A DNA stretch of 64,000 bases. Source: Octopus vulgaris. Lineage: Eukaryota. The stretch spans positions 80,042,001 through 80,106,000 of the forward strand of contig OX597827.1 of NCBI GenBank assembly GCA_951406725.2, written 5' to 3'. This document shows, in pieces, positions 33 to 62,789 of the stretch. How positions within the stretch are numbered: the stretch's first letter is position 1; each line of letters begins with the position of its first letter. The translations under genes were made by a program, and so were the position numbers. Below the pieces are notes generated by a model that saw nothing but the letters and a program-made list of their open reading frames with translations, was not told the DNA's origin and did no database searches.

Positions 33-420
33 CTTCATTGTGTGTAAAATCCTTTGTTGTATAAACTGTGACTTGGTCCCAATGTTCTGTTGTTAATGGT
101 TGTCTGTGTCACTGCTGCTATGGTGTGACAATGGCTTCATGTTGATGGAATAGTGTTGGTGGTGAGTCAGTGGGAACCAGCAGTTCCCTCTCAGTCTTCC
201 TTTGTGGATGTGTGGTGTTTAGTGAGTGTGTGTGTGCAAATGCGTGTAAGAGAGAGAGAGAGAGAGGAGGGATGGGTGATGCTTGCTCCAGCCTCACACA
301 CACAAGATGCTGTGTTTCCCTCAAAGAGAAGAGGAAAGAAAGAAAGAGAACAAACAATATCAGCTCCACTAACAGTCAGCCATAAGAAGTCCATATAACA
401 CCAACATGTCTGATGTAGAG
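33..420 (-). promoter_or_regulatory. Conserved leader exon/promoter cassette, copy 0 (would serve a protocadherin left of the window)
   Basis: ~170 bp near-invariant core (33-200) ends in donor ATGAAG|GTAAGT; upstream CA/CT repeats and a second conserved motif at ~358-416; 8 copies in window; 5' limit uncertain. Confidence 0.6.
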
Positions 421-997: not shown

Positions 998-1116
998 TCA
1001 GTTAGTAATGACATCTGGTGTTGAAGGTAACTGTCTCTCTGGAGGTTTCACATATCTGTCTTGATACTGTTGTCTTTCGGGGTTCACTGGTGTATCCTGT
1101 TGGCTACCATAGATCC
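998..1116 (-). CDS. PCDH: Protocadherin G1 terminal coding exon B (GIYGSQQDTPVNPERQQYQDRYVKPPERQLPSTPDVITN*)
   Basis: Acceptor TTTTGCAG; phase 1 matches exon A; TGA at 1000-998; homologous exon in all 8 units. Confidence 0.85.
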
Positions 1117-1272
1117 CTGCAAAACATTGTTTTAATGTAGCAATGTCAGAAACAATCACCATCATCAGAAATACTCTAGGGACACACAGACAGAACTAAT
1201 TACATCTCAGTCTACAACAATAATTAGTAATGAATTACTGTAATATTAAATGAGAATGGATTGTTGTCCTAC

Positions 1273-1426
1273 CTGACATTGCCGGTATTTCTTCATACTG
1301 TCTACTTGACCGCTCACTCCAGCACTGTCCACTGCTCTTCCGACTGGTCAGTGTGTCAGTGGGATAGTTAGAGGATGGTCTGTTGTCTCCATAAGATGTC
1401 ACCTCAATCGGTTGACTGTATTTCTG
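1273..1426 (-). CDS. PCDH: Protocadherin G1 tail exon A (QKYSQPIEVTSYGDNRPSSNYPTDTLTSRKSSGQCWSERSSRQYEEIPAMS)
   Basis: TTTTACAG|CAG acceptor, CAG|GTAGG donor, 154 bp, phase 0 to 1, open frame, conserved in 7 units. Confidence 0.85.
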
Positions 1427-1984
1427 CTGTAAAATAAAACGGCAACCAGTTATACTGTAATGTTGTTATAGAATAAATTTGAGTAATTAAGTATTTTGAG
1501 TATATTTAATTATCCGTATATTACTTGAAGCAATTAAAAGATGTATATTTTTTCAGATACACTATGTCAGATAAAATGCTAAAGAAATGAAAAAAAAAAA
1601 TCAGGCAGTTATTGTTGACATAAGTGAGGAACACAGCGATTTAGATATTACCAACTTTGTAAAATGCTGCAAGATCTTTTGTACTCAAAGTTTGGGTAGA
1701 ATTGGAAGCCTCTAGCAAGAATTTTTGAAGTGTATTAAAGAGAACTAAATTCTTCTAAATGTTTAGACTTTAGAAAGACACTGCAGTTCATCCAATGGAT
1801 TCAGAACATTATTGATTATGATCCCAGAAAACCAGTAAAGGAGGCCATGGTGAAGGAAATTCAAGCATTGGAATGGACTCGCAGAACTGAGGTGCACAAG
1901 CACATTTGACACCTGTCCTATGTACTGAGGAGAGGCTAATTCCTGTCTCCAAAGAACCAAGAAAATCATTTGACCTGTGCCAAG

Positions 1985-2420
1985 AGGTTACTTAACGAGG
2001 TTAAAAACCCTCACAAATACATTGTACTTTGGTTCCTCTCTGATGCAAAAAACTTTCACCAAGTCAGAAGTCTCACAGGAGAAAAGGCAGATGACTATGT
2101 TGTTACTTTCTGATGTTGCAAGAGCAATGCACATTCCGTTTCCAGCAACTGTGAGTTTTAAGGCTGGTTAGTAATGAAGATAATGTCATACCACCTCACA
2201 TATTTCCACAGAGTCTTAGAATTGATGTGGTTTGAAGTGCTGGAGATAGTTGTTAAGTTCTGGATGAATGAAGTATGCAGTGGAAAATCGAAGGTGTTTC
2301 AGCTCGTCTCAACACCTTCTCACAAAGACCATGTAACCCCAGAATGTATGTCATACACTCTTTCTAATTATGTAATAACGAACATGTGGCCTCCAGACTG
2401 ACAGGTTTAAATTCCATGGG
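1985..2420 (+). mobile_element. Degenerate Tc1/mariner-type transposase remnant
   Basis: Fragments WFLSDAKTF, VFQLVSTPSHK and NMWPPD resemble the FSDEK, FQQDxAPxH and WPPxSPDLNP motifs; disrupted by stops and frameshifts. Confidence 0.65.
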
Positions 2421-2424
2421 TTAA

Positions 2425-2492
2425 GTGCTTTATACGCACTTTTGACATGTTGTGGTGCACCTCAGCTCTGCATACAATAATTATATTATTAT
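2425..2492 (+). mobile_element. 3' tail fragment of CR1-like LINE
   Basis: tgtggtgcacctcagctctgcatacaataatt plus ATT tail matches the 3' end of the element at ~20330-20418. Confidence 0.55.
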
Positions 2493-3083
2493 ATGATAAG
2501 TTTGGTGTATTGTTGAAAGATAGACTAATCAACATCTCCACAATACCAAATATAAATACACAAACGTTTATGACTGCCCATATATTGCTTGAAGCAAATA
2601 ACGATAATTTAGTGAAGGCAGATAAGTGGTTCTGGTGCCACACTGCAGTGGTCATCAAAAATGTAGGTGGATTCAAAGGATAAAAAGGTAAGAAGTCAGA
2701 ATAAATACAACAGGATATTTCATCTACTGATTCTGCCAATTCTAGGATGCTTATATCATCCACTAACAAATAAAGAAAGTCATGCTTTAGTGTAAACAGG
2801 AGAAAGTAATTAACACAAGTCATTTAAGATTGTTGTAGTGAGTCATTCCTCACTACAACAATCTACTGCCTAGCTATATACCTATGGCCACATTCTGACC
2901 AATTTACTGCCTATGGTGTTGGGTTATACAAAGTGTCTTCAAGTAAATCACATACTAAACACATGATACACAATTCTGAGAGGAAATTTTATCAGATATA
3001 TGTCACCAAGTAATGTTTATAGCAGTCAAATTATTACAACACGAAGAATATATTAAAACAAATATATTGAAAATAATACTTAC

Positions 3084-5432
3084 CCGTGTAGATTTCTGGA
3101 GTGTTCTGTTCATTGTAGACATCTTCCAGTCATCTGGATAGTAATGGCTCCTCGAATGACCATATCTGTCTGACATCTCTCCTCGATTACCTGACATCAC
3201 AGGTACACTGTTGTTACCTTGATAGATCAACTGTCTCATCTCATTGCGACATTGGTATGCCTGTTTCTCTTCTGCTGTTCTTTCAGATGAGCTATTTCTC
3301 ACATTGTTACATCTCACAATACACAGGGTTATAGAAACCACAATAGCTATAGATACTATCACAGCTGCTACTACAATGATAATCAACAATGTCGCATCTA
3401 TTGTGTTATCACTTGGTAGGTGCACAGCTGTGAACATTGGTGACGTCTTGTTACTAACAGTCAGTGTCAAAGACACACTAGTTGTTGCTGACAGAACTGG
3501 AGTACCACTGTCTTTCACAACAAACTCAAGCTCATATGATCCGGCATCATTTTGGTAAACTGTGCGAGAGTAAGATAACACACCAGTGAACGAATCCAGT
3601 TTAAATAACTGTCTCTCGTTACCTGAAACGATTTCATACCTGAGAAAAGCATTCATGTGACTGTCTATATCAGATGCTTTCAGAACTGTGATGTCGTTCT
3701 TACTTTGCGGATGATAATGGACATTAAGAGTGAAAGGGTCAACACTAGGAAATGTAAAATATGGAGCATTATCATTTCTATCCAATACTTCCACTTCAAC
3801 ATTCACTGTGTTATTCAGAGATGGGCTTCCATTGTCTTTCACAAAAACCTCAAACTCATAGAAATCTCTGTGTTCTCTGTCTAAAGACTGGTTTGTTGAA
3901 ATAAAGCCAGAGTTGATAATCTGGAATGGCAGACGATATTGCTGTTTATTTCTCAGAGAATAAGACAATTCACCTCCCTTACCAATATCTGGGTCTGTAG
4001 CATTGATAAAGCCAATAGGGAAATTAGCTTTGTCATTCTCATAGGTAAGGAACTTGAATGTGTCTTTCGTAAAGTGTGGTTCTACATCATTCACATCCAA
4101 CACTTGGATTGACAGATCTTTATCAGTTTTCAGAGCAGGTAATCCTTTATCTTCACACGACACAGTAAAGTGATAATGTTCCTGTGTCTCTCTGTCTACT
4201 GCTTTCTTTAGAACTATTTTATATTCCTTCGATCCCATTGACTGTAGTTTGAATGTGTCATCTTTGATATGACAGTTCACCTGTCCATTGTGTCCAACAT
4301 CATTGTCAGTGACCATCACATAAGCAATGAAACTACCAACTTTGATGTCTTCCAGAATGGTGGCTGTGTTGTGATTCTGTGTAGAAATATAGTTCACATC
4401 AATATTTGGAGGATTGTTCTGCTGGTTGATGACATTTACCATAACAGTTGCTATGGAACTGAGAGGAGGGTTGCCCCCATCTCTGGCTTCAATGTATAAT
4501 TTAAATGATTTCATTTTGTCAAATTGTGATTCTTTGTTTAAGAATATTTCTCCAGTTTTCTCATTTATAATAAAATTATCTTTTGATTCTGTTGACGTTG
4601 TTGGGCTGATATAATATGAAACTTTACCATTTTCTCCAATATCAGAGTCTTCTGCCATCATTACAACAACTGGTCTATTCCTTTGATGGTTATTTTGTAT
4701 AGAGACATTGTATGTTTTCTCGGAGAAAATTGGTCTGTTATCATTTTCATCTTCCACAGTTATGTGCACATTTAAGACACCTTGTTTGGGTGGAGTTCCT
4801 CCATCCTTAGCAATCACTTCTATATTATAGCTATCTTTCGTCTCTCTGTCTAACTTTTCTTGTAATATAATTTCAAGAAAAGATACTCCGTCTGCTCTTT
4901 TGAATGTGGACAAAGAAAACTGTTGGTTACTTCCCTTCAATTCATAATTCACTAATCTGTTCTGTAATCCAACATCTTTGTCAATGGCATTGGGGATGGA
5001 CTTTTTCATACCGTTTCTATCTCCTTCTCCAAATGTTAATTGAATTTCTTCGACAGGAAACTCTGGTTGATGGTCATTGATGTCTTCTATAATCACCTTA
5101 ATTTTCAATATCTTTATAAATTTGCCTGCTTTATGAACTGCTACCTTAATTGTGTGAAAGCATTCTTTCTCAAAGGTACACAGAGACTCAGCATCCAGTG
5201 TTTGTGTGGTGTATATCTTCCCAGTGTTGGTCACATTAAACAGCTGTGTTCCCTTCTGTTGCAACTGACTGAACGATAATAATGCAGTGTCCTTTAACTG
5301 GGAATCAGCAGTAATGTCTCCTATGTTGATAACAGGACTGTTCTCTTCTTTCACATGGTAAACAATGTCTTTAGAGACAGAACAGTGAAGCAGAGACTGT
5401 AATATCCATATTGCTATTAAGACCATCTTCAT
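3084..5432 (-). CDS. PCDH: Protocadherin G1 large exon (signal peptide, EC1-6, TM, proximal tail)
   Basis: Six cadherin repeats (DxNDxxP, DRE, AxDxG), EC1 C-x5-C, TM LLIIIVVAAVIVSIAIVVSITLCIV; acceptor TTTTCAG (exon starts 5460), ATG 5432, phase-0 donor CGG|GTAAGT. Confidence 0.93.
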
Positions 5433-7294
5433 TTGTTGAGTTAAATACCAGTCAATTAATCTGAAAATAAAAAAGGTACACAACTGTCAGTCACATTACA
5501 GAAACAAATAATAGATTTTTAATAGTTATTTCGTGAATTTCATTCACAATAATTTTGTAATTTTAATTGTAATTTGGGAGTTGAGTTGTAGACAATAAAA
5601 ATATAATCCACTCCATCCCAACAAGAAGAGAAAAACTCATTTGACTTGGATCAGACGTATAATTTAACAATCAGCAAAACAAAGTGAATTGTCCATCAGA
5701 TAAAAACCCAAACCAGAACACACACAGAAGAAAGACTGATATGCGAGGAAGGATGTTCATGTGTGGAAAAAACTCTTCATTGTCTTATCCCTAACACACA
5801 GCAAAAAAGACATCTTTTATTGTCTTTCTATTTCTTCCTACTTTGCCTTTATTAACCACAATAATATCTGAGACATTACTGAAGATGATGGTGTTGGTGA
5901 TGATATTATATTTGTAAAATCTTTAACAAAGCTTCATAATATCCATTGCTATCTTTAGACAGAGGGTAAGGTAGTTGCTATTATCAGCAGATCAAGCAAC
6001 AAGATTGAAGCATGCCAATGGTTCAAAGGATGACACAGAGTTACTTTCCCCCCCTCAAAGTCTGGCATTAAAACGATATAAAACAGATTTGAGAGACAAC
6101 ATAAATAAATGGAAAAACTTGGGAATTGCTATAAAAGGTGTATTTCTCTCTATAAGGTATTTAAACAAGGTCTTTCTAGTAAAAAATATGTCTGTGTGTA
6201 ATGGTGAATATATATTTCACACAATAACTTTAAACATTTACCTTATTTAATAATGACTAATAATTTGGGGAAAAGTTAAAATCACTAGGGAAATAGGGTA
6301 GAGAGGATTGTCAATGAAGAGGTCATATTAATTTAGAGAATTGGCAATTAAGGAAAAGACAAAAAATCTAAAATTAAAACTGGTCAATATTCTTCATTTA
6401 TCTATGATTCTCATGGTTGCATTGGATCAATTTTGTAAATTGTAATTAAAAATATTGAAACAAAAAGCTAGCAACATTATATATTCTCTTCCATATACAA
6501 ATGGCAATTAAGTTACAAAAATACAGTTATTACATTTTAAATGAAATAATATATTTTACAAAAAATTAAAATTAAATTACTTTTATTTTTACAAGAAATA
6601 TTGAATGACAGAAAAAGCTCCTCATTCAATACTGGAAATCTATATAAACGGCATTTAATTAAAAGATATTCATTAAACAAGACCAAAATTGGACACTGTT
6701 TCAGTATGAATACAACAAACAGATTAAAACATATAAAATCTTATATTAAATTCAGAAAGACTTAAACAATACCACAACACAATATTGATTATTTATGTTG
6801 ACACTAAACCACCATCTTGTCAACTATTCTCCCAGTTTCACTTTAATATTTTATATTAATATAACACATTCTTACATATAAACACAATAATGATACTTGA
6901 CTCTCTCAAAACATCCTTCACAAGAAACACTCAAATTCTTTTTTAAATACACACAATAAAGAACATCTTCTGGTTATATATTATACATTATCAATACTGA
7001 TAATAATAGGAAGATGTCTGCAAATAAGAGACAACAAACTGACTGGATTTAAATATATTTCACTTGAAAAATAACCATAATTAAATATTATTTCACACTT
7101 CCTAACAGCAAAATATCAATCATGAACATATAAATCTCAACAGAAAGCGTGTAACTGGCAGAGACCATCTTTAAATGTCTACTGACATAATTTCTATTTG
7201 TTATATTCTATAGTAAAAGATGGCTGAAGAAAGTTTCTACAACAATCATCAGTCAAATATCTTAATAATACAAAATAAACATTCATAGACTTAC

Positions 7295-7680
7295 ATTCAT
7301 TGTGTGTAAAATCCTTTGTTGTATAAACTGTGACTTGGTCCCAATGTTCTGTTGTTAATGGTTGTCTGTGTCACTGCTGCTATGGTGTGACAATGGCTTC
7401 ATGTTGATGGAATAGTGTTGGTGGTGAGTCAGTGGGAACCAGCAGTTCACTCTCAGTCTTCCTTTGTGGATGTGTGGTGTTTAGTGAGTGTGTGTGTGCA
7501 TATGCGTGTAAGAGAGAGAGAGAGAGAGGAGGGATGGGTGATGCTTGCTCCAGCCTCACACACACAAGATGCTGTGTTTCCCTCAAAGAGAAGAGAGAAA
7601 GAAAGAAAGAGAACAAACAATATCAGCTCCACTAACAGTCAGCCATAAGAAGTCCATATAACACCAACATGTCTGATGTA
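7295..7680 (-). promoter_or_regulatory. Conserved leader exon/promoter cassette (probable exon 1 of G1)
   Basis: Copy of 33-420; donor ATGAAT|GTAAGT; next downstream large-exon acceptor at 5460. Confidence 0.6.
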
Positions 7681-8255
7681 GAGAGAGAGAGAGACTGGCA
7701 TAGATATATATATATATTCAGTGTTTCATACGGATCTCATATTAACAAAACATCACTGATATTGGTAAATATATTACTAACAAATGATGTTGATATAGAA
7801 CAATTCTGGTTAAGATGTGTCTGACCTAAATATACATCCAACCTATAATGGAGGATGCAGGAACAAATAGAGAAGGGATATTCTAATTTTCAGGCAGGTT
7901 TATTTTGGTATCATTTTTAAATATAATTTCCTAAGTCTTAGATTTTAATAACACTGCTGTAAAAAATAGAGAAATATATTTTAAATATATTCTAAATTAA
8001 TTTTAGATATATTTGAGAAATTTCATAAATATTATGCAAAATTCCTGTGTGTGTGTGTATTTATGGATACAAGTTGAAATCTTTCTGACTTCCAGTTAGT
8101 GTGTATGTATTGTATAGTATGCTGATATATAATATTGTAATTGTGAGGTAAAGATAAAACGTCTGTATTTTTTTAAACTTGTATGAGTGTGTGGTTAGAG
8201 GTTCGTATTTGAAATGGTATTGGTAAGGGGTCAATATTTAGTAAATGACCAGTGG

Positions 8256-8374
8256 TCAGTTAGTAATGACATCTGGTGTTGAAGGTAACTGTCTCTCTGG
8301 AGGTTTCACATATCTGTCTTGATACTGTTGTCTTTCAGGGTTCACTGGTGTATCCTGTTGGCTACCATAGATCC
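8256..8374 (-). CDS. PCDH: Protocadherin G2 terminal exon B
   Basis: Near-identical to 998-1116; acceptor TTTTGCAG; TGA at 8258-8256. Confidence 0.85.
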
Positions 8375-8544
8375 CTGCAAAACATTGTTTTAATGTAGCA
8401 ATGTCTGAAACAATTATCATCATCAGAAATACTCTAGGGACACACAGACAGAACTAATTACATCTCAGAGTATACAACAATAATTAGTACAATAATTAGT
8501 AATGAATTACTGTAATATTAAATGAGAATAGATTGTTGTCCTAC

Positions 8545-8698
8545 CTGACATTGCTGGTATTTCTTCATACTGTCTGCTTGACCGCTCACTCCAGCACTGT
8601 CCACTGCTCTTACGACTGGTCAATGTGTCAGTGGGATAGTGAGAAGATGGTCTGTTGTCTCCATAAGATGTCACCTCAATCGGTTGACTGTATTTCTG
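8545..8698 (-). CDS. PCDH: Protocadherin G2 tail exon A
   Basis: 154 bp, CAGCAG acceptor, GTAGG donor, encodes QYEEIP. Confidence 0.85.
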
Positions 8699-9920
8699 CT
8701 GTAAAATATTATTGAATCCAGTTATAACAAAATGACGTGCCTCTGTAATCTAAAATATGCTTAGTACAAAATTCTAAAAGAAACAGATTTAACTGTCACA
8801 TAGGTAATAGTATCACTATATCATCTAAATATATTTTACATGTTTCTTTATTAAACAATTGTTTATGAAATAATTCAGAAACTCATTTTGCCACAATCCA
8901 CAATGAATGCGAATAACGTCACACATACACCATGAGAAGGGATATATGAAGGTGTTTTCATAACAAATATTGATCAAATATTAATAGAAATTCATAAAGA
9001 GAAAATTATTGGTGAGATACTTCCAGAAGTTATGTAATATGAAACAACATTGCTAGGGACCTGCAGTTGAAATGATGCTATATTAGACTGTTCTTAAAAG
9101 TGCCATGTATCAACATAGCATCTTTCATATCTTATTAAATATTATTACAGTGAATCTATTAGCTGATCTTACATTCATTTACAGCAATCCACTTTCATTA
9201 TCTGTCCAGAGTCATTTGTATGGTGAACCAGCTGTTATTTCCTGAGATTAGAGATGTGATTTCCAACTATACTATGTGATCAATGTCAGCTAACATGAAG
9301 TCAGGTCTGTCATCCAGTTTGAGAATATGTGTCAACTTAAATTTCTCAAGTTCTTGGAAGAGCTCTTGGTATTCAGACAGAACCCACACCAACAGAAAAA
9401 TGAAGGGCTGAAATACTGTTATTGATATTCATCAATGGTAAAACTTTACAACTTGTTCCATTCAAGAGGGAATCTTTCAATCAGGATATATACAGACGTT
9501 ACTGTGTGATTTTTTTCACTATTTCCTACAAAGTGTACCCTGTAAGCAAATCAGCATTCAATTTGTTCACAAACTATACAATGTATGGAACATTAGATGA
9601 ATGTCTACCTCCATCCAGCAGAATGACCTTTATCAAGATTCAAATGGTTAACTAGCATCTTCCAGCAGCCGAAATATGGTTTCAGAAAGAGTTAGTAGTT
9701 TATGATGCGTTGCATATTGTGTACTATAACTTTTAATCGACAATCTTTTCTACAAAATGATCTTCTTTCATAACAATTCTGCTTAAGCAATAACAATGCA
9801 AAATGACATAATTTAGCAGTTGTAATTCATACAACATTACATTTATCCAAAGATGAAACAAATAAGGCATTAAATTTGGAGATTATTTACTTGAAGATGT
9901 TTACTGGAAATAGAGCTTAC

Positions 9921-12269
9921 CTTTGTAGATTTCTGAAGTGTTCTGTTCATTGTAGACATCTTCCAGTCATCTGGATAGTAATGGCTCCTCGAATGACCAT
10001 ATCTGTCTGTCATCTCTCCTCGATTACCTGACATCACAGGTACACTGTTGTTACCTTGATAGATCAACTGTCTCATCTCATTGCGACATTGGTATGCCTG
10101 TTTCTCTTCTGCTGTTCTTTCAGATGAGCTATTTCTCACATTGTTACATCTCACAATACACAGGGTTATAGAAACCACAATAGCTATAGATACTATCACA
10201 GCTGCTACTACAATGATAATCAACAATGTCGCATCTATGGTGTTATCACTTGGTAGGTGCACAGCTGTGAACATTGGTGACGTCTTGTTACTAACAGTCA
10301 GTGTCAAAGACACACTAGTTGTTGCTGACAGAACTGGAGTACCACTGTCTTTCACAACAAACTCAAGCTCATATGATCCGGCATCATTTTGGTAAACTGT
10401 GCGAGAGTAAGATAACACACCGGTGAACGAGTCCAGTTTAAATAACTGTCTCTCGTTACCTGAAACGATTTCATACCTGAGAAAAGCATTCATGTGACTG
10501 TCTATATCAGATGCTTTCAGAACTGTGATGTCGTTCTTACTTTGCGGATGATAGTGGACATTAAGAGTGAAAGGGTCAACACTAGGAAATGTAAAATATG
10601 GAGCATTATCATTTCTATCCAATACTTCCACTTCAACATTCACTGTGTTATTCAGAGATGGGCTTCCATTGTCTTTCACAAAAACCTCAAACTCATAGAA
10701 ATCTCTGTGTTCTCTGTCTAAAGACTGGTTTGTTGAAATAAAGCCAGAGTTGATAATCTGGAATGGCAGACGATATTGCTGTTTATTTCTCAGAGAATAA
10801 GACAATTCACCTCCCTTACCAATATCTGGGTCTGTAGCATTGATAAAGCCAATAGGGAAATTAGCTTTGTCATTCTCATAGGTAAGGAACTTGAATGTGT
10901 CTTTCGTAAAGTGTGGTTCTACATCATTCACATCCAACACTTGGATTGACAGATCTTTATCAGTTTTCAGAGCAGGTAATCCTTTATCTTCACACGACAC
11001 AGTAAAGTGATAATGTTCCTGTGTCTCTCTGTCTACTGCTTTCTTTAGAACTATTTTATATTCCTTCGATCCCATTGACTGTAGTTTGAATGTGTCATCT
11101 TTGATATGACAGTTCACCTCTCCATTGTGTCCAACATCATTGTCAGTGACCATCACATAAGCAATGAAACTACCAACTTTGATGTCTTCCAGAATGGTGG
11201 CTGTGTTGTGATTCTGTGCAGAAATAAAGTTCACATCAATATTTGGAGGATTATTGTGTTGGTTGATAACATTTACCATAACCGTTGCTATGGAACTGAG
11301 AGGAGGGTTGCCCCCATCTCTGGCTTCAATGTATAATTTAAATGATTTCATTTTGTCAAATTGTGATTCTTTGGCTAAGAATATTTCTCCAGTTTTCTCA
11401 TTTATAATAAAATTATCTTTTGATTCTGTTGATGTTGTTGGGCTGATATAATATGAAACTTTACCATTTTCTCCAATATCAGAGTCTTCTGCCATCATTA
11501 CAACAACTGGTCTATTCCTTTGATGGTTATTTTGTATAGAGACATTGTATGTTTTCTCGGAGAAAATTGGTCTGTTATCATTTTCATCTTTCACAGTTAT
11601 GTGCACATTTAAGACACCCTGTTTGGGTGGAGTTCCTCCATCCTTAGCAATCACTTCTATATTATAGCTGTCTTTCGTCTCTCTGTCTAACTTTCCTTGT
11701 AATATAATTTCAAGAAAAGATACTCCGTCTGCTCTTTTGAATGTGGACAAAGAAAACTGTTGGTTACTTCCCTTTAATTCATAATTCACTAATCTGTTCT
11801 GTAATCCAACATCTTTGTCAATGGCATTGGGGATGGACTTTTTCCTACCTTTTCCATCTCCTTCTCTAAGTTCCAGTTTAATTTGTTCCACAGGAAACTC
11901 TGGTTGATGGTCATTGATGTCTTCTATAATCACCTTAATTTTCAATATCTTTATAAATTTACCTGCTTTATGAACGGCTACCTTAATTGTGTGAAAGCAT
12001 TCTTTCTCAAAAGTACACAGAGACTCAGCATCCAGTGTTTGTGTGGTGTATATCTTCCCAGTGTTGGTCACATTAAACAGCTGTGTTCCCTTCTGTTGCA
12101 ACTGACTGAACGATAATAATGCAGTGTCCTTTAACTGGGAATCAGCAGTAATGTCTCCTATGTTGATAACAGGACTGTTCTCTTCTTTCACATGGTAAAC
12201 AATGTCTTTAGAGACAGAACAGTGAAGCAGAGACTGTAATATCCATATCGCTATTAAGACCATCTTCAT
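9921..12269 (-). CDS. PCDH: Protocadherin G2 large exon
   Basis: Near-identical twin of G1; exon starts 12297, ATG 12269, donor AAG|GTAAGC. Confidence 0.93.
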
Positions 12270-14137
12270 TTGTTGAGTTAAATACCAGTCAATTGATCTG
12301 AAAATATAAAAGGTACACAACTGCCAGTCACATTACAGAAACAAATAATAGATTTTTAATAGTAAATTCGTGAATTTCATTCACAATAATGTTGTAATTT
12401 TAATTGTAATTTGGGAGTTGAGTTGTAGACAATAAAAATATAATCCACTCCATCCCAACAAGAAGAGAAAAACTCATTTGACTTGGATCAGACGTATAAT
12501 TTAACAATCAGCAAAACAAAGTGAACTGTCCATCAGATAAAAACCCAAACCAGAACACACACAGAAGAAAGACTGATATGCGAGGAAGGATGTTCATGTG
12601 TGGAAAAAACTCTTCATTGTCTTATCCCTAACACACAGCAAAAAAGACATCTTTTATTGTCTTTCTATTTCTTCCTACTTTGCCTTTATTAACCACAATA
12701 ATATCTGAGACATTACTGAAGATGATGGTGTTGGTGATGATATTATATTTGTAAAATCTTTAACAAAGCTTCATAATATCCATTGCTATCTTTAGACAGA
12801 GGGTAAAGTAGTTGCTATTATCAGCAAATCAAGCAACAAGATTGAATCATGCCAATGGTTCAAAGGATGACACAGAGTTACTTTCCCCCCTCAAAGTCTG
12901 GCATTAAAACGATATAAAACAGATTTGAGAGACAACATAAATAAATGGAAAAACTTGGGAATTGCTATAAAAGGTGTATTTCTCTCTATAAGGTATTTAA
13001 ACAAGGTCTTTCTAGTAAAAAATATGTCTGTGTGTAATGGTGAATATATATTTCACACAATAACTTTAAACATTTATCTTATTTAATAATTACTAATAAT
13101 TTGGGGAAAAGTTAAAATCACTAGGGAAATAGGGTAGAGAGGATTGTCAATGAAGAGGTCATATTAAGTTAGAGAATTGGCAATTAAGGAAAAGACAAAA
13201 AATCTAAAATTAAAACTGGTCAATATTCTTCATTTATCTACTATGATTCTCATGGTTGCATTGGATCAATTTTGGAACTTCTAATTAAAAATATTGAAAC
13301 AGAAAGCTAGCAACATTATATATTCTCTTCCATATACAAATGGCAATTAAGTTACAAAAATGCAGTTATTACATTTTAAATGAAATAATATATTTTACAA
13401 AAAATTAAAATGAAATTACTTTTATTTTTACAAGAAATATTGAATGACAGAAAAAGCTCCTCATTCAATACTGGAAATCTATATAAACGGCATTTAATTA
13501 AAAGATATTCATTAAACAAGATCAAATATGACAGAAGTTTTAACTCAAAAGCAACATTATGCTAATACCAATAAAATCTGATACAATATTAAATTTAGAA
13601 AGACTTAAATAATACCACAACACAATATTGATTATTTATGTTGACACTAAACCACCATCTTGTCAACTCTTCTCCCAGTTTCACTTCAATATTTTATATT
13701 AATATAACCCATTCTTACATATAAACACAATAATGATACTTGACTCTCTCAAAACATCCTTCACAAGAAACACTCAATTTTTTTTTTAAATACACACAAA
13801 AAAGAACATCTTCTGGTTATATATTATACATTATCAATACTGATAATAATAGGAAGATGTCTGCAAATAAGAGACAACAAACTGACTGGATTTAAATATA
13901 TTTCACTTGAAAAATAACCATAATTAAATATTATTTCACACTTCCTAACAGCAAAATATCAATCATGAACATATAAATCTCAACAGAAAGCGTGTAACTG
14001 GCAAAGACCATCTTTAAATGTCTACTGACATAATTTCTATTTGTTATATTCTATAGTAAAAGATGGCTGAAGAAAGTTTCTACAACAATCATCAGTCAAA
14101 TATCTTAATAATACAAAATAAACATTCATAGACTTAC

Positions 14138-14525
14138 CTTCATTGTGTGTAAAATCCTTTGTTGTATAAACTGTGACTTGGTCCCAATGTTCTGTTGTTA
14201 ATGGTTGTCTGTGTCACTGCTGCTATGGTGTGACAATGGCTTCATGTTGATGGAATAGTGTTGGTGGTGAGTCAGTGGGAACCAGCAGTTCCCTCTCAGT
14301 CTTCCTTTGTGGATGTGTGGTGTTTAGTGAGTGTGTGTGTGCATATGCGTGTAAGAGAGAGAGAGAGAGAGAGAGGAGGGATGGGTGATGCTTGCTCCAG
14401 CCTCACACACACAAGATGCTGTGTTTCCCTCAAAGAGAAGAGAGAAAGAAAGAAAGAGAACAAACAATATCAGCTCCACTAACAGTCAGCCATAAGAAGT
14501 CTATATAACACCAACATGTCTGATG
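14138..14525 (-). promoter_or_regulatory. Conserved leader exon/promoter cassette (probable exon 1 of G2)
   Basis: Copy of 33-420; donor ATGAAG|GTAAGT. Confidence 0.6.
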
Positions 14526-15123
14526 TAGAGAGAGAGAGAGACTGGCATAGATATATATATATATTCAGTGTTTCATATGGATCTCATATTAACAAAACAT
14601 CACTGATATTGGTAAATATATTACTAACAAATGATGTTAATATAGAACAGTTCTGGTTAAGATGTGTCTGACCTAAATATACACCCAACCTATAATGGAG
14701 GATGTAGGAACAAATAGAGAAGGGATATTCTAATTTTCAGGCAGGTTTATTTTGGTATCATTTTTAAATATAATTTCCTAAGTCTTAGATTTTAAAAACA
14801 CTGCTGTAAAAAATAGAGAAAAATATTTTAAATGTATTCTAATTTAATTCCAGAGATATTTGGGAAATATAAAAATCACCTAACTGAGAATATTAGAGAA
14901 AAGAGGAGCGTATATAAAACATTAAGTGTGTGTGTGTGGTTTGAAATGTTGCTGACTTCACTGTTAGTGTCCATATATTCTATCATAGGTTGGAATATAA
15001 TATTGTAATTGTGAGGTAATGAGAGAAGTTATTATATTTATATTAGTTTGTGTGAGTGAGTGGGGTTGGTGGTTATTTGAAATATTATTGTAAAGGGTCA
15101 ATATTTAGTTAAATGACCAGTGG

Positions 15124-27527: not shown

Positions 27528-29904
27528 CTTTGTAGACTTTTGAAGTGTTCTGCTCATTGTTGATGTCTTCCAGTCTTCAGGATAGTAATGGCTCCTCGAA
27601 TGACCATATCTGTCTGTCATCTCTCCTCGATTACCTGACATCACAGGTACACTGTTGTTACCTTGATAGATCAACTGTCTCATCTCATTGCGACATTGGT
27701 ATGCCTGTTTCTCTTCTGCTGTTCTTTCAGATGAGCTATTTCTCACATTGTTACATCTCACAATACACAGGGTTATAGAAACCACAATAGCTATAGATAC
27801 TATCACAGCTGCTACTACAATGATAATCAACAATGTCGCATCTATTGTGTTATCACTTGGTAGGTGCACAGCTGTGAACATTGGTGACGTCTTGTTACTA
27901 ACAGTCAGTGTCAAAGACACACTAGTTGTTGCTGACAGAACTGGAGTACCACTGTCTTTCACAACAAACTCAAGCTCATATGATCCGGCATCATTTTGGT
28001 AAACTGTGCGAGAGTAAGATAACACACCAGTGAACGAGTCCAGTTTAAATAACTGTCTCTCGTTACCTGAAACGATTTCATACCTGAGAAAAGCATTCAT
28101 GTGACTGTCTATATCAGATGCTTTCAGAACTGTGATGTCGTTCTTACTTTGTGGATGATAGTGGACATTAAGAGTGAAAGGGTCAACACTAGGAAATGTA
28201 AAATATGGAGCATTATCATTTCTATCCAATACTTCCACTTCAACATTCACTGTGTTATTCAGAGATGGGCTTCCATTGTCTTTCACAAAAACCTCAAACT
28301 CATAGAAATCTCTGTGTTCTCTGTCTAAAGACTGGTTTGTTGAAATAAAGCCAGAGTTGATAATCTGGAATGGCAGACGATATTGCTGTTTATTTCTCAG
28401 AGAATAAGACAATTCACCTCCCTTACCAATATCTGGGTCTGTAGCATTGATAAAGCCAATAGGGAAATTAGCTTTGTCATTCTCATAGGTAAGGAACTTG
28501 AATGTGTCTTTCGTAAAGTGTGGTTCTACATCATTCACATCCAACACTTGGATTGACAGATCTTTATCAGTTTTCAGAGCAGGTAATCCTTTATCTTCAC
28601 ACGACACAGTAAAGTGATAATGTTCCTGTGTCTCTCTGTCTACTGCTTTCTTTAGAACTATTTTATATTCCTTCGATCCCATTGACTGTAGTTTGAATGT
28701 GTCGTCTTTGATATGACACTTCACCTGTCCATTGTGTCCAACATCATTGTCAGTGACCATCACATAAGCAATGAAACTACCAACTTTGATGTCTTCCAGA
28801 ATGGTAGCTGTGTTGTGATTCTGTGTAGAAATAAAGTTCACATCAATATTTGGGTGATTGTTGTGTTGGTTGATGACAGTTACCATAACAGTTGCTATGG
28901 AACTGAGAGGAGGGTTGCCCCCATCTCTGGCTTCAATATATAATTTAAATGTTTCTTCATTAAAGTTTGTATTCTTTGAGAACAATATTTCTCCTGTGAT
29001 TTTATCTAACTTGAAATATTGTTTGTTTTTCTCGAGTGTCTTTGGACTAAAATAATAAGAAATCTCTCCATTTTTACCGATATCCAGATCTTCAGCTGAT
29101 ACAATAACAACAGCTTTGTTTTTGTCTTGTGTTTTCTTTACAGAAATGTTGTATAGTTTTTGTTGAAATACAGGTAAATTATCATTTTCATCTTGAACTT
29201 CTATGTTTACCTTTAAAATACTTTCTTTGGATGGACTTCCTCCATCCTTAGCAATGACTTCCAGACTATAGTGATCTTTCACTTCTCTATTTAATTTACT
29301 TTCTAGAACAATCTCTAGTCGAGATATTCCATCAGCTCTTTTAGAAACTAATAATGAAAACATTTCCTCATTGTTCTTTAAATGATAATTAATTACACTA
29401 TTTAAAACTCCAACATCTTTGTCAATGGCATTTGGAATGGACTTTTTCATTCCTTCTCTGTCTCCTTCTCCAAACTGCAAAGTGATTTCCTTCTCTGGAA
29501 ACTCAGGTTGGTGGTCATTGATGTCTTCTATAACTACTTTAATTTTCAAGATTTTCAAGAAGTTTTTTTTTGTGAACAGCAACTTTAACTTCCTGGAAAC
29601 ATTCCTTTTCAAAAGTACAGAGGGCTTCAGCATCCAGTGTTTGTATTGTGTAGATTTTCCCACTTTCAGAAACATTAAATATCTGTGTTCCTTTAAGTTT
29701 CAGTTGATTAAACGTAATGTGACCAATGTCTCCAGATGGCACTACGTCTTGAAACTGTGGATCAGCTGTAATGTCTCCAACAAATGTATGTGTGTTTGTC
29801 TCTTCCTTTACCTTGTAGATTAAATTAAAACTGAGACAGCAGGGGAAGAAGAAAGTTAGCAAAACTGAAAAGCTCAACATATTTTCTTTTGTCAGTGAAA
29901 ACAT
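27528..29904 (-). CDS. PCDH: Protocadherin G4 large exon, frameshifted in an A9 run (assembly error or pseudogene)
   Basis: ORFs 29539-29910 (signal peptide, EC1) and 27471-29675 (rest) join at the T9 run 29563-29571; exon starts 29927, ATG 29904 or 29880, donor AAG|GTAAGT. Confidence 0.85.
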
Positions 29905-33426: not shown

Positions 33427-33551
33427 TCAGTTAAGTATTATAACATCTGGTGTTGATGGCAATTGTTTTTCTGATGGTGTTACATACCTCTCTTGGTTCT
33501 CTTGCAGCTCCTCACTACATGTCGATGTGTTGGCCTGTATACCACAAAGCC
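33427..33551 (-). CDS. PCDH: Protocadherin G5 terminal exon B, divergent (GLCGIQANTSTCSEELQENQERYVTPSEKQLPSTPDVIILN*)
   Basis: Acceptor TTTTGCAG, phase 1, TGA at 33429-33427. Confidence 0.8.
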
Positions 33552-33643
33552 CTGCAAAACAGCAGACAATAGAAAACATGGAGCAATCCTTAATGTACCT
33601 CATATAACATCAAGACTACAATTGAAAAATAGCCCTTCTCTAC

Positions 33644-33779
33644 CTGATGATACTGCTGGTATTTCTTCATAGTGTGTACTTGACCCTTCACTCCAGCACT
33701 GTTCACTATCTTTATGATTGCTCAACATGTCAGTGGGGTATTCAAATGATGTCACTGCTACCGGCTGACTATAGTTTTG
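33644..33779 (-). CDS. PCDH: Protocadherin G5 tail exon A, divergent (QNYSQPVAVTSFEYPTDMLSNHKDSEQCWSEGSSTHYEEIPAVSS)
   Basis: 136 bp, acceptor TTTCACAG, donor CAG|GTAGAG, phase 0 to 1. Confidence 0.8.
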
Positions 33780-34199
33780 CTGTGAAATAAATAATAAAAT
33801 ATGAAATATTAAATACCAGATCAAGTATATTATTTCAATTGAAAAATAGCAAAGAGTTAAAGGATTTCAGAAGAATATTTAGAAAAAAAAACCCCAGATA
33901 ACATTACTTTTAGTCCAGGTACAATTAAAACTGCTAAAATATTTTTAGTTAATCTATAATGTGTTTGTAATGTTTAATAGTTGTCAAGTAGTTTTACTGT
34001 AATGTCACATTCTTTGATGATTGAGACCACACATGTAGATAATCTTATTTAGTATATCAGACTCAGCAGAGATTTTCATCATGAACACTTCAAGTATTTC
34101 ATATTAAAAGAAGAAAAACAGAGTTTCAGTTGATATGTTATAAATAATCATTTCTAATATTGTTACAAGCTCTGACTTTAGGCAGAGAACACAGATGGA

Positions 34200-44311: not shown

Positions 44312-45224
44312 CTGATGAGTAATAAAAGGTATTTATCAGAGGGTATGGCATAATACAAACATAGGCCGTAAACACAGCCCCTACTTCCAGACCACACAAT
44401 TAAATAAAAAAAGATTGTGTTAATAATATTGATAATATTAGTAATATTATATTAATTTTAACAGATACTTCTATGGTCAACCCTACAAAATTCACTGTGG
44501 AAATCAATACTAGAGAGTGTTGTCTAAAATTATTTGTTGCAGTAGATTTATTCCGTGTCTGCAGAATGAATGGAAATGACCAAAGTTTAGTCTGATCAAC
44601 AGTGTTCTTTTTCTTCCTTATTTCTATCCTTAATAAGTTCATCGGAGTGACTCATGTTTAGCAATCCATATAATAATTCGTTTATAATCATTTGTATTCA
44701 TTAAATACAAAATAATCGTTTTTGAGAAACAATTCCAAGCCCTTTCCCCTTGACTTTTCAATTTTGTTATCTTCAGCTTTATTTAAGACTAGAAAAATGA
44801 CAACAGAGAGAAGCACAGTTCCTGCAGCTCTAATCACAGTAAAATAAGTAATTTCCTCTAACAACTATTTAATAGATTCCTTGTATGACTCATATTTTCC
44901 TTCCCTTAACCCTGCCTCGGACATCTTCAGCTGATTCAGTCCACACCCACCTCCCCACCATTCCCTTGCAGCGATAGTTATTTCCCTTCCACCATTACTT
45001 CCAGATATCAATACAAACAGGAAATTGAATTTCCCCATTAATGTTGACAGTGTATGACCTTTCTAAGCTAAAAGACCCCAGAATTACAACACAGAATCTG
45101 AATCTGTCTAGCATTCTTCAACTAGCAAGGATATCAGATATAACCAGGTAGATACGGTTAATGCCATATACAAATGGGTAGATAGTGGCGATATCATATA
45201 AGAGATGGTTAATGGTGTGTATGT

Positions 45225-45250
45225 ACATACATACATACACACACACACAC

Positions 45251-45287
<37 letters not shown>

Positions 45288-45440
45288 TAATATATATATA
45301 CATATATATATAATATATATATACATATATATATAATATATATATACATATATAATATATATATATACATATATAATATATATATACATATAATATATAT
45401 ATACATATTCATATATATATACATATACATATATATATAC

Positions 45441-45471
<31 letters not shown>

Positions 45472-45869
45472 CACATACATACATATACATTTACACATAT
45501 ATATATTTACATACACACACACACATATAAATTAGAATAAAACCACCTTTTATAAATTCCATAATGAAAAATTAAATTATACCATTTAGAAAAATTACAT
45601 GTTATAGAAGGATTAAATATAAGATAAAACATATAACAATGATTAAGTAATGTGCAAAATAATAAATAAAATATATATATTGGGTAAAATAATGACACGT
45701 GTTTCATGGCTATATTTAAGAAGTGATAATAGTAATAATAATAGTAGTATTCGTAAAATCACTTCAATATAAATATAGCTACTCTTCAGGTTAAAGATAA
45801 CAACAATAAAATGAGTTTATTGTTAATTTATTTTTTATAATTAATTAACGCACACACACACACACACAC

Positions 45870-45916
<47 letters not shown>

Positions 45917-46107
45917 GGAGTAAACACATAAATGTGAAACAAGGTGGGAAAAAGAGTACTCAAATACCAGAGGTTGAGTAATATGCTTTATTTAAAAGCA
46001 GCAGAAACTTAATAAAAGCTGTTACTTGGAGTTTCACGTTCCCGTTCGTCGGGAACGTGAAACTCCGATTAACAGCTTTTGTTAAATTTCTGCTGCTTTT
46101 AAATAAA

Positions 46108-46148
<41 letters not shown>

Positions 46149-46183
46149 TATATGTATATATACATATATATATATGTATATAC

Positions 46184-46255
<72 letters not shown>

Positions 46256-46277
46256 GTATATATGTATACATATATAC

Positions 46278-46318
<41 letters not shown>

Positions 46319-46322
46319 TGTG

Positions 46323-46357
<35 letters not shown>

Positions 46358-46587
46358 GTATACATATATACATACATATATACATATATATGTATACATA
46401 TACGTATACATATACGTATATACATATATATATATACATATATACATATATATGTATACATATAATATATATATATATGAAGGCATATATATTTATATGT
46501 ATATGTACATATATATGAATGTATGTATATATGCATGATGTATGTGTATATATGTACATATATGTTAAGATAAATATTCTTGGAAGT

Positions 46588-46640
<53 letters not shown>

Positions 46641-46670
46641 CATATATATATATCATATATATATACATAC
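45225..46670. repeat. (TA)n/(TACA)n/(CA)n microsatellite field
   Basis: Tracts at ~45225-45530, 45850-45913 and 46109-46670. Confidence 0.9.
45914..46108. mobile_element. Putative Penelope-like fragment with foldback, inserted in (TA)n
   Basis: 59 bp arms 45986-46044 / 46050-46108, 5 nt loop, hammerhead-like GACGA-ACG-GGAA-CGT-GAAAC. Confidence 0.5.
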
Positions 46671-61788: not shown

Positions 61789-61910
61789 TTAACTGACAAC
61801 AACATCTGGTGTTGAAGGTAACTGTCTCTCTGGAGGTTTCACATATCTGTCTTGGTAATGGTCTCTCTCACTGGTGCTTGATACATCGGGTGGGGCACCA
61901 CCATAGATTC
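61789..61910 (-). CDS. PCDH: Terminal exon B of protocadherin G8 (rest of the gene lies beyond the right edge)
   Basis: Near-identical to G4 exon B (…ERQLPSTPDVVVS*), acceptor TGTTTCAG, TAA at 61791-61789. Confidence 0.8.
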
Positions 61911-62789
61911 CTGAAACACACATATATACATCAAATAAACTTAGATATTCTACATAAAGAAAGTTTATTAATTGGAAATCAATCTTTTGCCCACAACATT
62001 CAGTGAATAAGATTATAGTCAGTTAGTTAAACTAAAATATAAAATTAAAACAACAATAATAATTAAAATAATTTACATTGAGATGATATCTTAATTAGAT
62101 TGGAATTGTTAAATAAAATACAGTTCATTTAGTGACTTCTCTGGTTCACAAGCTGATCAAATTAGATGAATGTATAACTGTGCTTGAAGGCTAAGTTTAT
62201 TAAAAAACTTCTAAAATTCCTTTTATATTATACTGCTTCATATAATTTGATAGTTTCAAGAATATACTTTCAATTTCAGTTAGACATGTTGACATAAATA
62301 TTTCAGTACAAGATTAGTGGAGATATTAAAACAGACAGTGATGTGTATATTTAAAAGAAATGTGTTCACTATCTAAACATAAAGATTTGGAAATACAGAT
62401 AATCAGAATGTGGAGATTGAAAACAGAAACAATCCCCATAATAACAGGTAGTTTGGAAAGGGTTAAAAAGTTGTGGACAAATTCATAATCAATATCTTAG
62501 TAATTAGACAAGCACAAACATACAGACAACAGCACTACCAAACACTGCACATGCTTGGACTTATATTGTCTTTTTCTTTTTTAATATTATAGTTAGGAGG
62601 AAAGGCAGTGTCGAGATGACATGTTAGTGGGCCTCTGCTATTGCTGGGAGGGAGGGAGGAAGATAGTCTCACAGCTGGCTCCTGACCTAAATGCTTGCAA
62701 CAAAGTAGGCTTTGCTAAAGGCACCTAAGATGCCAAGTGGTAGAGCTAAATAGGGTGAGGGGTTACGTCTATCACCCAAGCAGACTATA

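What the first reader, a model, noticed from the sequence alone, without database searches (positions are those of the whole stretch)
5007..5054. 48 bp hypervariable patch at the start of EC2 distinguishes otherwise twin genes
Seen: G1 VEEIQLTFGEGDRNGM versus G2 (11844-11891) VEQIKLELREGDGKGR, with 12 nucleotide and 8 amino-acid differences in 16 codons, several changing charge. The remaining ~770 residues of the exon differ at only about nine sites. Silent changes inside the patch suggest it was copied from a third paralog. Inference: micro-conversion or strong selection on the first EC2 strands creates a new specificity right after duplication.
Basis: partly seen in the sequence, partly recalled or inferred. 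Interest (0 to 1): 0.7.

Follow-up and report, generated by a model that had tools for sequence, protein, structure and literature searches.

The report
Octopus protocadherin island surviving gene conversion
Two neighbouring octopus protocadherin genes are nearly identical except for a 16-residue stretch, which is likely a leftover difference between old paralogues overwritten by gene conversion; it lies on the predicted cell-recognition surface and is also the joint most divergent stretch between close paralogues across octopod protocadherins.

Summary
The patch is real: 12 nt and 8 aa differences in codons 127-142, and 0 of 200,000 permutations cluster this tightly. The genes are Octopus vulgaris protocadherins.

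They are not fresh twins. Their first introns do not align, and EC4 to the tail is about 99% identical across all 7 window genes, which points to conversion-homogenised old paralogues. No exact donor was found. G2 matches O. sinensis sister paralogue P0004 at 5 of the 8 residues, and G1 matches its orthologue P0002 at all 8.

With window genes excluded, the same segment (EC2 strand A and A-B loop) is the joint top divergence peak among close octopod paralogues (41% versus 21% in orthologues). Positions 133, 135 and 142 align to vertebrate trans-interface residues.

Against a strict new specificity: the EC3 partner face is identical in G1 and G2, pN is not above pS overall, and a similar island lies in non-coding DNA.

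Verdict: a new instance of a known process, and a useful minimal pair for testing the untested cephalopod recognition code.

The parts
5007..5054 (-). G1 patch, codons 127-142 (EC2 strand A/A' plus A-B loop)
   Evidence: strand at aa129-135, loop at 136-142, strand B from 143 in the AlphaFold model of G2
11844..11891 (-). G2 patch, codons 127-142
11871..11891 (-). G2 5' sub-block (codons 127-133): 3 silent and 4 replacement nt changes versus G1; Q129, K131, E133 match O. sinensis P0004
11844..11870 (-). G2 3' sub-block (codons 134-142): 5 replacement and 0 silent changes versus G1; L134, R135, R142 are specific to G2 within the subfamily
3084..5432 (-). G1 large coding exon (signal, 6 cadherin repeats, TM, proximal tail; 783 codons)
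9921..12269 (-). G2 large coding exon (783 codons)
1427..3083 (-). G1 intron 1 (about 1.65 kb), not alignable to G2 intron 1
8699..9920 (-). G2 intron 1 (about 1.22 kb), not alignable to intron 1 of G1, G3, G4, G6 or G7 (G5 not compared)
1001..1426 (-). G1 coding exons 2-3 (approximate); with the 3' UTR about 97% identical to G2's
8259..8698 (-). G2 coding exons 2-3 (approximate)
4428..4511 (-). G1 EC3 strands F-G and F-G loop (aa308-335), the vertebrate partner face of the EC2 A-B loop; protein-identical in G2
6683..6753 (.). Non-coding divergence island in the G1 upstream region (versus about 13522-13596): shows islands also occur without protein selection
5433..8021 (.). Homogenised upstream/intergenic tract (versus 12270-14868); about 1.5% different in the two stretches measured outside the island

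Best explanation
The patch is a real island of difference between two neighbouring octopus protocadherins that are likely old paralogues overwritten by gene conversion, and it likely persists because it lies on the predicted trans-recognition surface of EC2, where it would tune G2's binding rather than create a fully separate identity. Shown: the island itself, non-alignable first introns, array-wide homogenisation of EC4 to the tail, G2's partial match to the O. sinensis sister paralogue, and recurrence of the same peak in other octopod paralogue pairs. Inferred: G2 descends from the P0004-type gene and was overwritten by G1-type sequence across EC2-EC3 except codons 127-133; the 3' half then gained three replacements in G2, while R139/N140 arose on the G1 side; selection against identical recognition surfaces keeps the segment different. 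Predicted: because EC3's partner face is identical, a G1:G2 dimer would contain one G1-type and one G2-type half-interface, so mixing should be partial or intermediate.
For: History. No blastn hit (word 7, E<=0.01) between G1 and G2 intron 1, while both flanks are about 97% identical. Codons 353-760 are 98.9-99.6% identical in all 21 pairs of 7 genes whose EC2-3 are only 59-70% identical, G1/G2 excepted. Species-specific residues shared by both members of a pair flank the patch: T69 in both O. sinensis genes, S168 in G1 and G2. O. sinensis P0002/P0004 differ at 10 of 16 patch sites between near-identical flanks. G2 equals P0004 at 5 of the 8 differing sites but is P0002-type at 36 of 39 diagnostic sites outside the patch. 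O. bimaculoides P0121 is the reverse mosaic. Patch pS 0.30 lies between background 0.036 and older paralogues 0.49-0.75. Family pattern. With window genes excluded, 127-142 is the joint highest sliding window (0.41) in 20 disjoint same-species paralogue pairs, and top or joint top in 12 of 19 pairs; residue 135 differs in 14 of 19. Divergence there is 0.41 in 20 paralogue pairs versus 0.21 in 18 Argonauta-Octopus orthologue pairs, p=8e-4. It is the top window in 5 of 6 pairs among four tandem units of a separate O. sinensis subfamily. Surface mapping. aa135 and aa142 align to Pcdh19 interface residues S139 and T146, and T146R abolishes bead aggregation. aa133 aligns to gammaB7 E111, a described specificity position. 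The EC2 A-B loop and strand B are shared interface motifs. Codons 134-142 have 5 replacements and 0 silent changes (P 0.001-0.006 against the background silent rate, window chosen post hoc).
Against: Patch-wide pN 0.24 does not exceed pS 0.30. A comparable island lies in non-coding DNA, so islands need no protein selection. The patch is not uniquely protected: the Argonauta pair P0003/P0005 differs at only 3 of 16 patch sites, and P0121 carries a G1-type patch on a P0004-type EC3. Only Q129 and K131 are exclusive to G2 and P0004 in the subfamily: E133 is also in Argonauta and G139/K140 also in P0121. Orthology of G2 to P0004 rests on protein only, with no intron or synteny data. The segment is not the most variable family-wide by entropy (rank 43 of 298 windows). 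In one search it was top in only 6 of all 14 pairs. 14 of 20 paralogue pairs are from Argonauta. Five of the 8 changed residues (129, 131, 134, 139, 140) were not mapped to a named interface residue. My searches found no binding data for any cephalopod protocadherin.
Confidence: 0.6

Rival explanations
1. Import from a donor: G2 arose as a G1-type copy and received codons 127-133 or more by micro-conversion from a P0004-type or other paralogue that lies outside the window or has been lost.
For: All silent changes sit in codons 127-132. The first five G2 patch residues occur exactly only in P0004 among 128 proteins. Residues 135-141 of G2 occur in three other octopus paralogues. The patch is the most homoplastic window on the family tree, RI 0.41.
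Against: No donor among G3-G7 (17-22 of 48 nt from G2) or anywhere in the window. No O. vulgaris P0004-type protein appears among listed hits. The non-alignable intron 1 still requires old paralogy or a second event. Distant-donor swaps are not patch-specific: 3 of 46 here versus 4 of 44 and 5 of 42 in other windows.
Confidence: 0.2
2. Neutral leftover: conversion tracts simply missed this stretch, and once diverged it resists further conversion; it has no effect on recognition.
For: Non-coding island at 6683-6753 and unconverted intron 1. pN/pS about 0.8. EC3 face identical.
Against: The same 16 codons recur as the peak across unrelated subfamilies and species and are twice as divergent in paralogues as in orthologues. 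5 replacements and 0 silent changes in codons 134-142.
Confidence: 0.15
3. Assembly artefact: a false tandem duplication of two haplotypes, or a chimeric consensus.
For: G1/G2 background difference is low (about 1.5% in non-coding tracts). G4 carries a frameshift at an A-run, so errors may exist. Reads unchecked.
Against: Different intron 1. No indel or stop in the patch. Patch residues match independent genes of another species. O. sinensis and Argonauta each also have two genes of this subfamily among the hits.
Confidence: 0.05

Closest known systems
Vertebrate clustered protocadherins under domain-limited gene conversion (Noonan et al. 2004, seen only as cited in PMC4978886 passages)
   Same: Tandem paralogues with homogenised membrane-proximal repeats and diverged EC2-EC3; divergence concentrated on the trans-recognition region.
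   Different: Independent expansion; each octopus gene has its own exons 2-3 rather than shared constant exons (PMC9068888 passages). Here conversion has also erased nearly all of EC2-EC3 between two genes, leaving one 48-nt island.
Peak of divergence between converted duplicates (red/green opsin; Teshima and Innan 2008, seen as reviewed in PMC3924837 passages)
   Same: A narrow divergence peak inside otherwise homogenised paralogues, read as the target of selection.
   Different: In opsins the introns are homogenised and function is proven. Here intron 1 is unconverted, a non-coding island also exists, and function is untested.
Mouse Pcdh beta6/beta8 minimal pair (PMC8901172 passages)
   Same: Closely related isoforms told apart by a few interface residues, including two in EC2 (S117, L125).
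   Different: beta6/beta8 differ in EC1, EC2 and EC4 interface residues, and partial swaps are intermediate. G1/G2 differ almost only in EC2, with the EC3 face and EC1 identical.
Octopus/coleoid protocadherin arrays (PMC9068888, PMC6339937 passages)
   Same: Same family and organisation; both papers suggest duplication plus gene conversion.
   Different: The passages seen give no tract-level or residue-level analysis; 'EC2' occurs 0 times in PMC6339937.

Membership tests
Coleoid tandem-array protocadherins | Protocadherin architecture: EC1 of the Cadherin_2 type plus five further cadherin repeats, TM segment and tail | tested here: met
   Pfam PF08266 plus 5 PF00028 stretches in both genes; best Foldseek matches are protocadherin EC1-4 structures; TM segment read from the sequence
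Coleoid tandem-array protocadherins | Head-to-tail array of full multi-exon genes, each with its own 3' exons | tested here: met
   7 large exons on one strand, with separate exon 2/3 sets; 100% match to an O. vulgaris gene model
Vertebrate clustered protocadherins | Variable exons spliced to shared constant exons (alpha and gamma clusters) | tested here: not met
   Each gene has its own exons 2-3
Vertebrate clustered protocadherins | Antiparallel EC1-4 trans dimer with an EC2:EC3 interface | tested here: inconclusive
   Inferred only by alignment to solved structures and by the paralogue-divergence profile
Vertebrate clustered protocadherins | Strictly homophilic binding | not testable with these tools
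   Needs aggregation or SPR; no cephalopod data found
Selection-maintained divergence island under gene conversion | Duplicates older than their sequence identity implies, with ongoing conversion | tested here: met
   Non-alignable intron 1, array-wide EC4-tail identity, species-specific shared residues
Selection-maintained divergence island under gene conversion | Narrow, significant divergence peak | tested here: met
   0 of 200,000 permutations
Selection-maintained divergence island under gene conversion | Within the peak, orthologues are closer than paralogues | tested here: inconclusive
   G1 to P0002 15/16 versus G1 to G2 8/16; G2 to P0004 only 10/16; Argonauta pair nearly homogenised. 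Family-wide the trend holds
Selection-maintained divergence island under gene conversion | The peak contains the functional difference | not testable with these tools
   Only homology mapping to Pcdh19 and gammaB7 interface residues
Micro-conversion from a third paralogue | An identifiable donor matching the tract | tested here: inconclusive
   None in the window; partial protein match to O. sinensis P0004 only; the rest of the O. vulgaris array is not available as DNA

The most novel reading that the evidence does not exclude
Octopus protocadherins, expanded independently of vertebrates, converged on the same EC2 A-B-loop / EC3 F-G-loop identity code (positions 135 and 321 each differ in 14 of 19 close paralogue pairs). 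G1/G2 is then a natural minimal pair in which conversion erased every other difference and an eight-residue, one-sided EC2 change alone keeps two neuronal identity tags apart.
Probability: 0.22. Interest if true: 0.75.

Novelty: new member of a known kind. Interest (0 to 1): 0.45.

Why it matters
Whether the expanded cephalopod protocadherins work as a self/non-self code like the vertebrate clusters is open. PMC9068888 makes no functional claim, and my search for cephalopod aggregation data listed only three reviews. This work names a candidate specificity surface from sequence alone (EC2 aa127-142, with EC2 175-190 and EC3 positions such as 285, 303 and 321). It also supplies a pair differing almost only there. 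One aggregation experiment with G1, G2 and swaps would test homophilic binding, the vertebrate-like interface, and whether a one-sided change can separate identities. The process itself, conversion with protected islands, is known.

Tried and rejected
Homodimer prediction of G2 EC1-4 gave no verdict (score 0.01, mark 0.32, no contacts given); it is used neither for nor against.

My first idea of a third twin gene left of the window was wrong: 1-1436 is G1's own exons 2-3 and 3' UTR.

A simple recent tandem duplication, and a single unequal crossover with G3, were both rejected because G2's intron 1 matches neither G1 nor G3.

A donor among G3-G7 was rejected. A patch-specific swappable cassette was rejected: 3 of 46 events, no more than other contiguous windows, although above matched non-contiguous column sets (mean 0.1; 1 of 1000 reached 3).

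Positive selection over the whole 48 nt was not shown (Fisher p=0.69).

Cluster members of the close relatives could not be listed, so versions hidden inside 90% clusters stay unchecked. No eukaryotic DNA or read collection was available, so read support, O. sinensis introns and synteny stay unchecked.

Literature searches that found no residue-level or tract-level study of cephalopod protocadherins: (open-licence library only). Supplements were not opened. Albertin et al. 2015 and Wang and Ragsdale 2017 were not read and may bear on novelty.

Full report
CONTEXT. The window holds seven protocadherin large exons on the minus strand. G1 and G2 each have a Cadherin_2 EC1 plus five cadherin repeats, and genes carry their own exons 2-3. 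G2 and G1 match, 783 of 783 residues each, a fused Octopus vulgaris gene model (P0131). That names the species but is not independent evidence for the assembly.

OBSERVATION. Confirmed exactly: 12 of 48 nt, 8 of 16 aa, and nine other aa differences in the exon. With 40 nt differences in 2351 nt, 0 of 200,000 permutations put 12 in any 48 nt; the same holds for EC1-3 alone with 31 differences in 1056 nt. The patch has two halves. Codons 127-133 hold all 3 silent changes plus 4 replacements; codons 134-142 hold 5 replacements and no silent change. Overall pN is 0.24 and pS 0.30, against a background pS of 0.036.

THE GENES ARE NOT FRESH TWINS. G1 and G2 are 97.6% identical from 3079-8021 and about 97% over exons 2-3 and the 3' UTR. 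The first introns between these blocks (about 1.65 and 1.22 kb) give no blastn hit at word size 7 and E<=0.01; the global score is 474 versus 404 for shuffles. G2's intron also matches none of G3, G4, G6 or G7; G5 was not compared. Codons 353-760 are 98.9-99.6% identical in all 21 pairs of the seven genes, whereas codons 113-320 are 59-70% identical in the 20 pairs other than G1/G2. Conversion is therefore active array-wide (inference). Other islands exist: non-coding 6683-6753 and codons 329-351.

ORIGIN OF THE TWO VERSIONS. No donor lies in the window: the best other matches differ by 14 (G1) and 17 (G2) of 48 nt. Three protein searches listed 120 of 1029, 8 of 8 and 120 of 713 hits. They gave a subfamily of O. 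sinensis P0002 and P0004, O. bimaculoides P0121, and Argonauta P0005 and P0003. G1 equals P0002 at all 8 differing sites (15 of 16 overall). G2 equals P0004 at 5 of 8 (Q129, K131, E133, G139, K140) yet is P0002-type at 36 of 39 diagnostic sites outside the patch. P0002 and P0004 themselves differ at 10 of 16 patch sites between an identical EC1 and an almost identical 33-residue stretch. P0121 is the reverse mosaic, and the Argonauta pair differs at only 3 patch sites but widely elsewhere. Caveats: only Q129 and K131 are exclusive to G2 and P0004; G139/K140 also occur in P0121, so R139/N140 are probably derived on the G1 side. The simplest reading (inferred) is an old gene pair exchanging blocks in each lineage, with O. 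vulgaris G2 overwritten by G1-type sequence everywhere but here. Import from an unseen P0004-type donor cannot be excluded from proteins alone.

THE SAME SEGMENT FAMILY-WIDE. I used 95 named octopod proteins of the 128, plus 6 window genes. Left out were unnamed and non-octopod hits, fused P0001, short P0128 and frameshifted G4. Pairs were chosen on identity excluding each tested window, so the selection bias is symmetric. Window 127-142 was the most divergent of 19 windows in 21 disjoint same-species pairs (0.42) but not in 18 reciprocal-best orthologue pairs (0.21). With window genes removed, the sliding peak falls at 127 (0.41), tied with EC3 295; it is top or joint top in 12 of 19 pairs, and residues 135 and 321 each differ in 14 of 19. 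Paralogue versus orthologue gives p=8e-4 for 20 versus 18 pairs, 14 of the 20 from Argonauta. In fused models, the window was top in 5 of 6 pairs among four 91-95% identical O. sinensis units, in 0 of 4 pairs with a fifth unit whose N-terminus looks mis-annotated, and in 1 of 4 other pairs. Against special status: entropy rank 43 of 298 windows, and distant-donor swaps are no more frequent here than elsewhere. The database is clustered at 90%, so very close paralogues may be hidden.

STRUCTURE. The AlphaFold model of G2 EC1-4 (pLDDT 85.9) places aa129-135 in EC2's first strand and 136-142 in the A-B loop; its best structural matches are protocadherin EC1-4 structures. Ungapped alignment over this region maps aa135 and aa142 to human Pcdh19 S139 and T146. 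PMC5115871 (passages) lists both in the trans interface and shows T146R abolishes bead aggregation. aa133 maps to gammaB7 E111, a specificity position in PMC5106212 (section 10 and passages). aa137 maps to gammaA8 I116 but is the same in G1 and G2; its role as a dimer-breaking site is recalled, the mutant name was seen. The EC3 motifs that partner this loop in vertebrates (C-D loop, strands F and G, F-G loop) are protein-identical in G1 and G2. If the octopus dimer is two-fold antiparallel and contacts are additive, a G1:G2 dimer has one half-interface of each homodimer, so strict exclusion is not expected (inference). In mouse beta6/beta8, partial swaps behave intermediately (PMC8901172 passages).

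MECHANISM. Best explanation (0.6): a conversion-resistant island on the likely recognition surface, part inherited divergence and part new replacements, predicted to tune binding and partly separate G1 from G2. Rivals are donor import (0.2), neutral leftover (0.15) and artefact (0.05).

COMPARISON AND NOVELTY. It works like the divergence peaks of converted duplicates (PMC3924837 passages) and like EC2-3 protection in vertebrate clusters (PMC4978886 passages; PMC5001838 and bioRxiv 10.1101/493106 passages). Noonan 2004, Teshima and Innan 2008 and Rubinstein 2015 were seen only as citations. It is not a member of the vertebrate clustered family, since there are no shared constant exons. Conversion in octopus arrays has been suggested (PMC9068888, PMC6339937 passages). 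Searches found no tract-level or residue-level study; supplements and subscription papers were not seen. Verdict: new member of a known kind, interest 0.45, with value mainly as a testable minimal pair and a sequence-derived candidate interface for cephalopod protocadherins.

Noticed in passing
window 27471-about 30000, frameshift near 29560-29572: G4's signal peptide and most of EC1 lie in a different frame from the rest; the break is at an A-run, so it is either a pseudogene or a homopolymer assembly error.
   Followed up: partly
codons 353-760 of all seven genes (e.g. G1 3153-4376): About 1.2 kb covering EC4-EC6, TM and the proximal tail is 98.9-99.6% identical at DNA level in all 7 genes, while EC2-3 are 59-70% identical (G1/G2 excepted) and the six introns compared do not align. 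This is an extreme domain-limited homogenisation that mimics a constant region without shared exons.
   Followed up: partly
window 6683-6753 versus about 13522-13596: Non-coding divergence island upstream of G1/G2 with no donor in the window; possibly regulatory.
   Followed up: partly
G1 4380-4448 / G2 11217-11285 (codons 329-351): Second cluster of 7 G1/G2 differences at the EC3/EC4 edge; G1's codons 337-338 match G7, G2's match G3-G6.
   Followed up: partly
G2 11868-11870 (codon 134): G2 has Leu where 97 of 99 other octopod proteins have Phe; the vertebrate Pcdh chains seen have Ile there.
   Followed up: no
family alignment, aa175-190 and aa289-310, residues 319 and 321: EC2 D-E region is paralogue-divergent but orthologue-conserved (ratio 2.6-3.9); EC3 289-310 is the second peak, and F-G-loop residue 321 ties for the most often changed site.
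   Followed up: partly
window 4754 / 11591 (codon 227): E227K lies beside the EC2-3 linker, about two residues from the position called self-interacting in gammaA isoforms (residue 206; mapping approximate).
   Followed up: no
window 61792-61920 and 33436-33809: Last exon of an eighth gene whose large exon lies right of the window; G5 has clearly diverged exons 2-3.
   Followed up: no
window about 45200-46670: Long AT/AC microsatellite producing two spurious Tyr/Ile-rich ORFs.
   Followed up: no
P0131, P0129, P0133, P0134, P0001: Public gene models fuse tandem octopus protocadherins and misname them (G2+G1 as 'Fat 1-like', 1701 aa), so paralogue counts from annotations are unreliable.
   Followed up: yes
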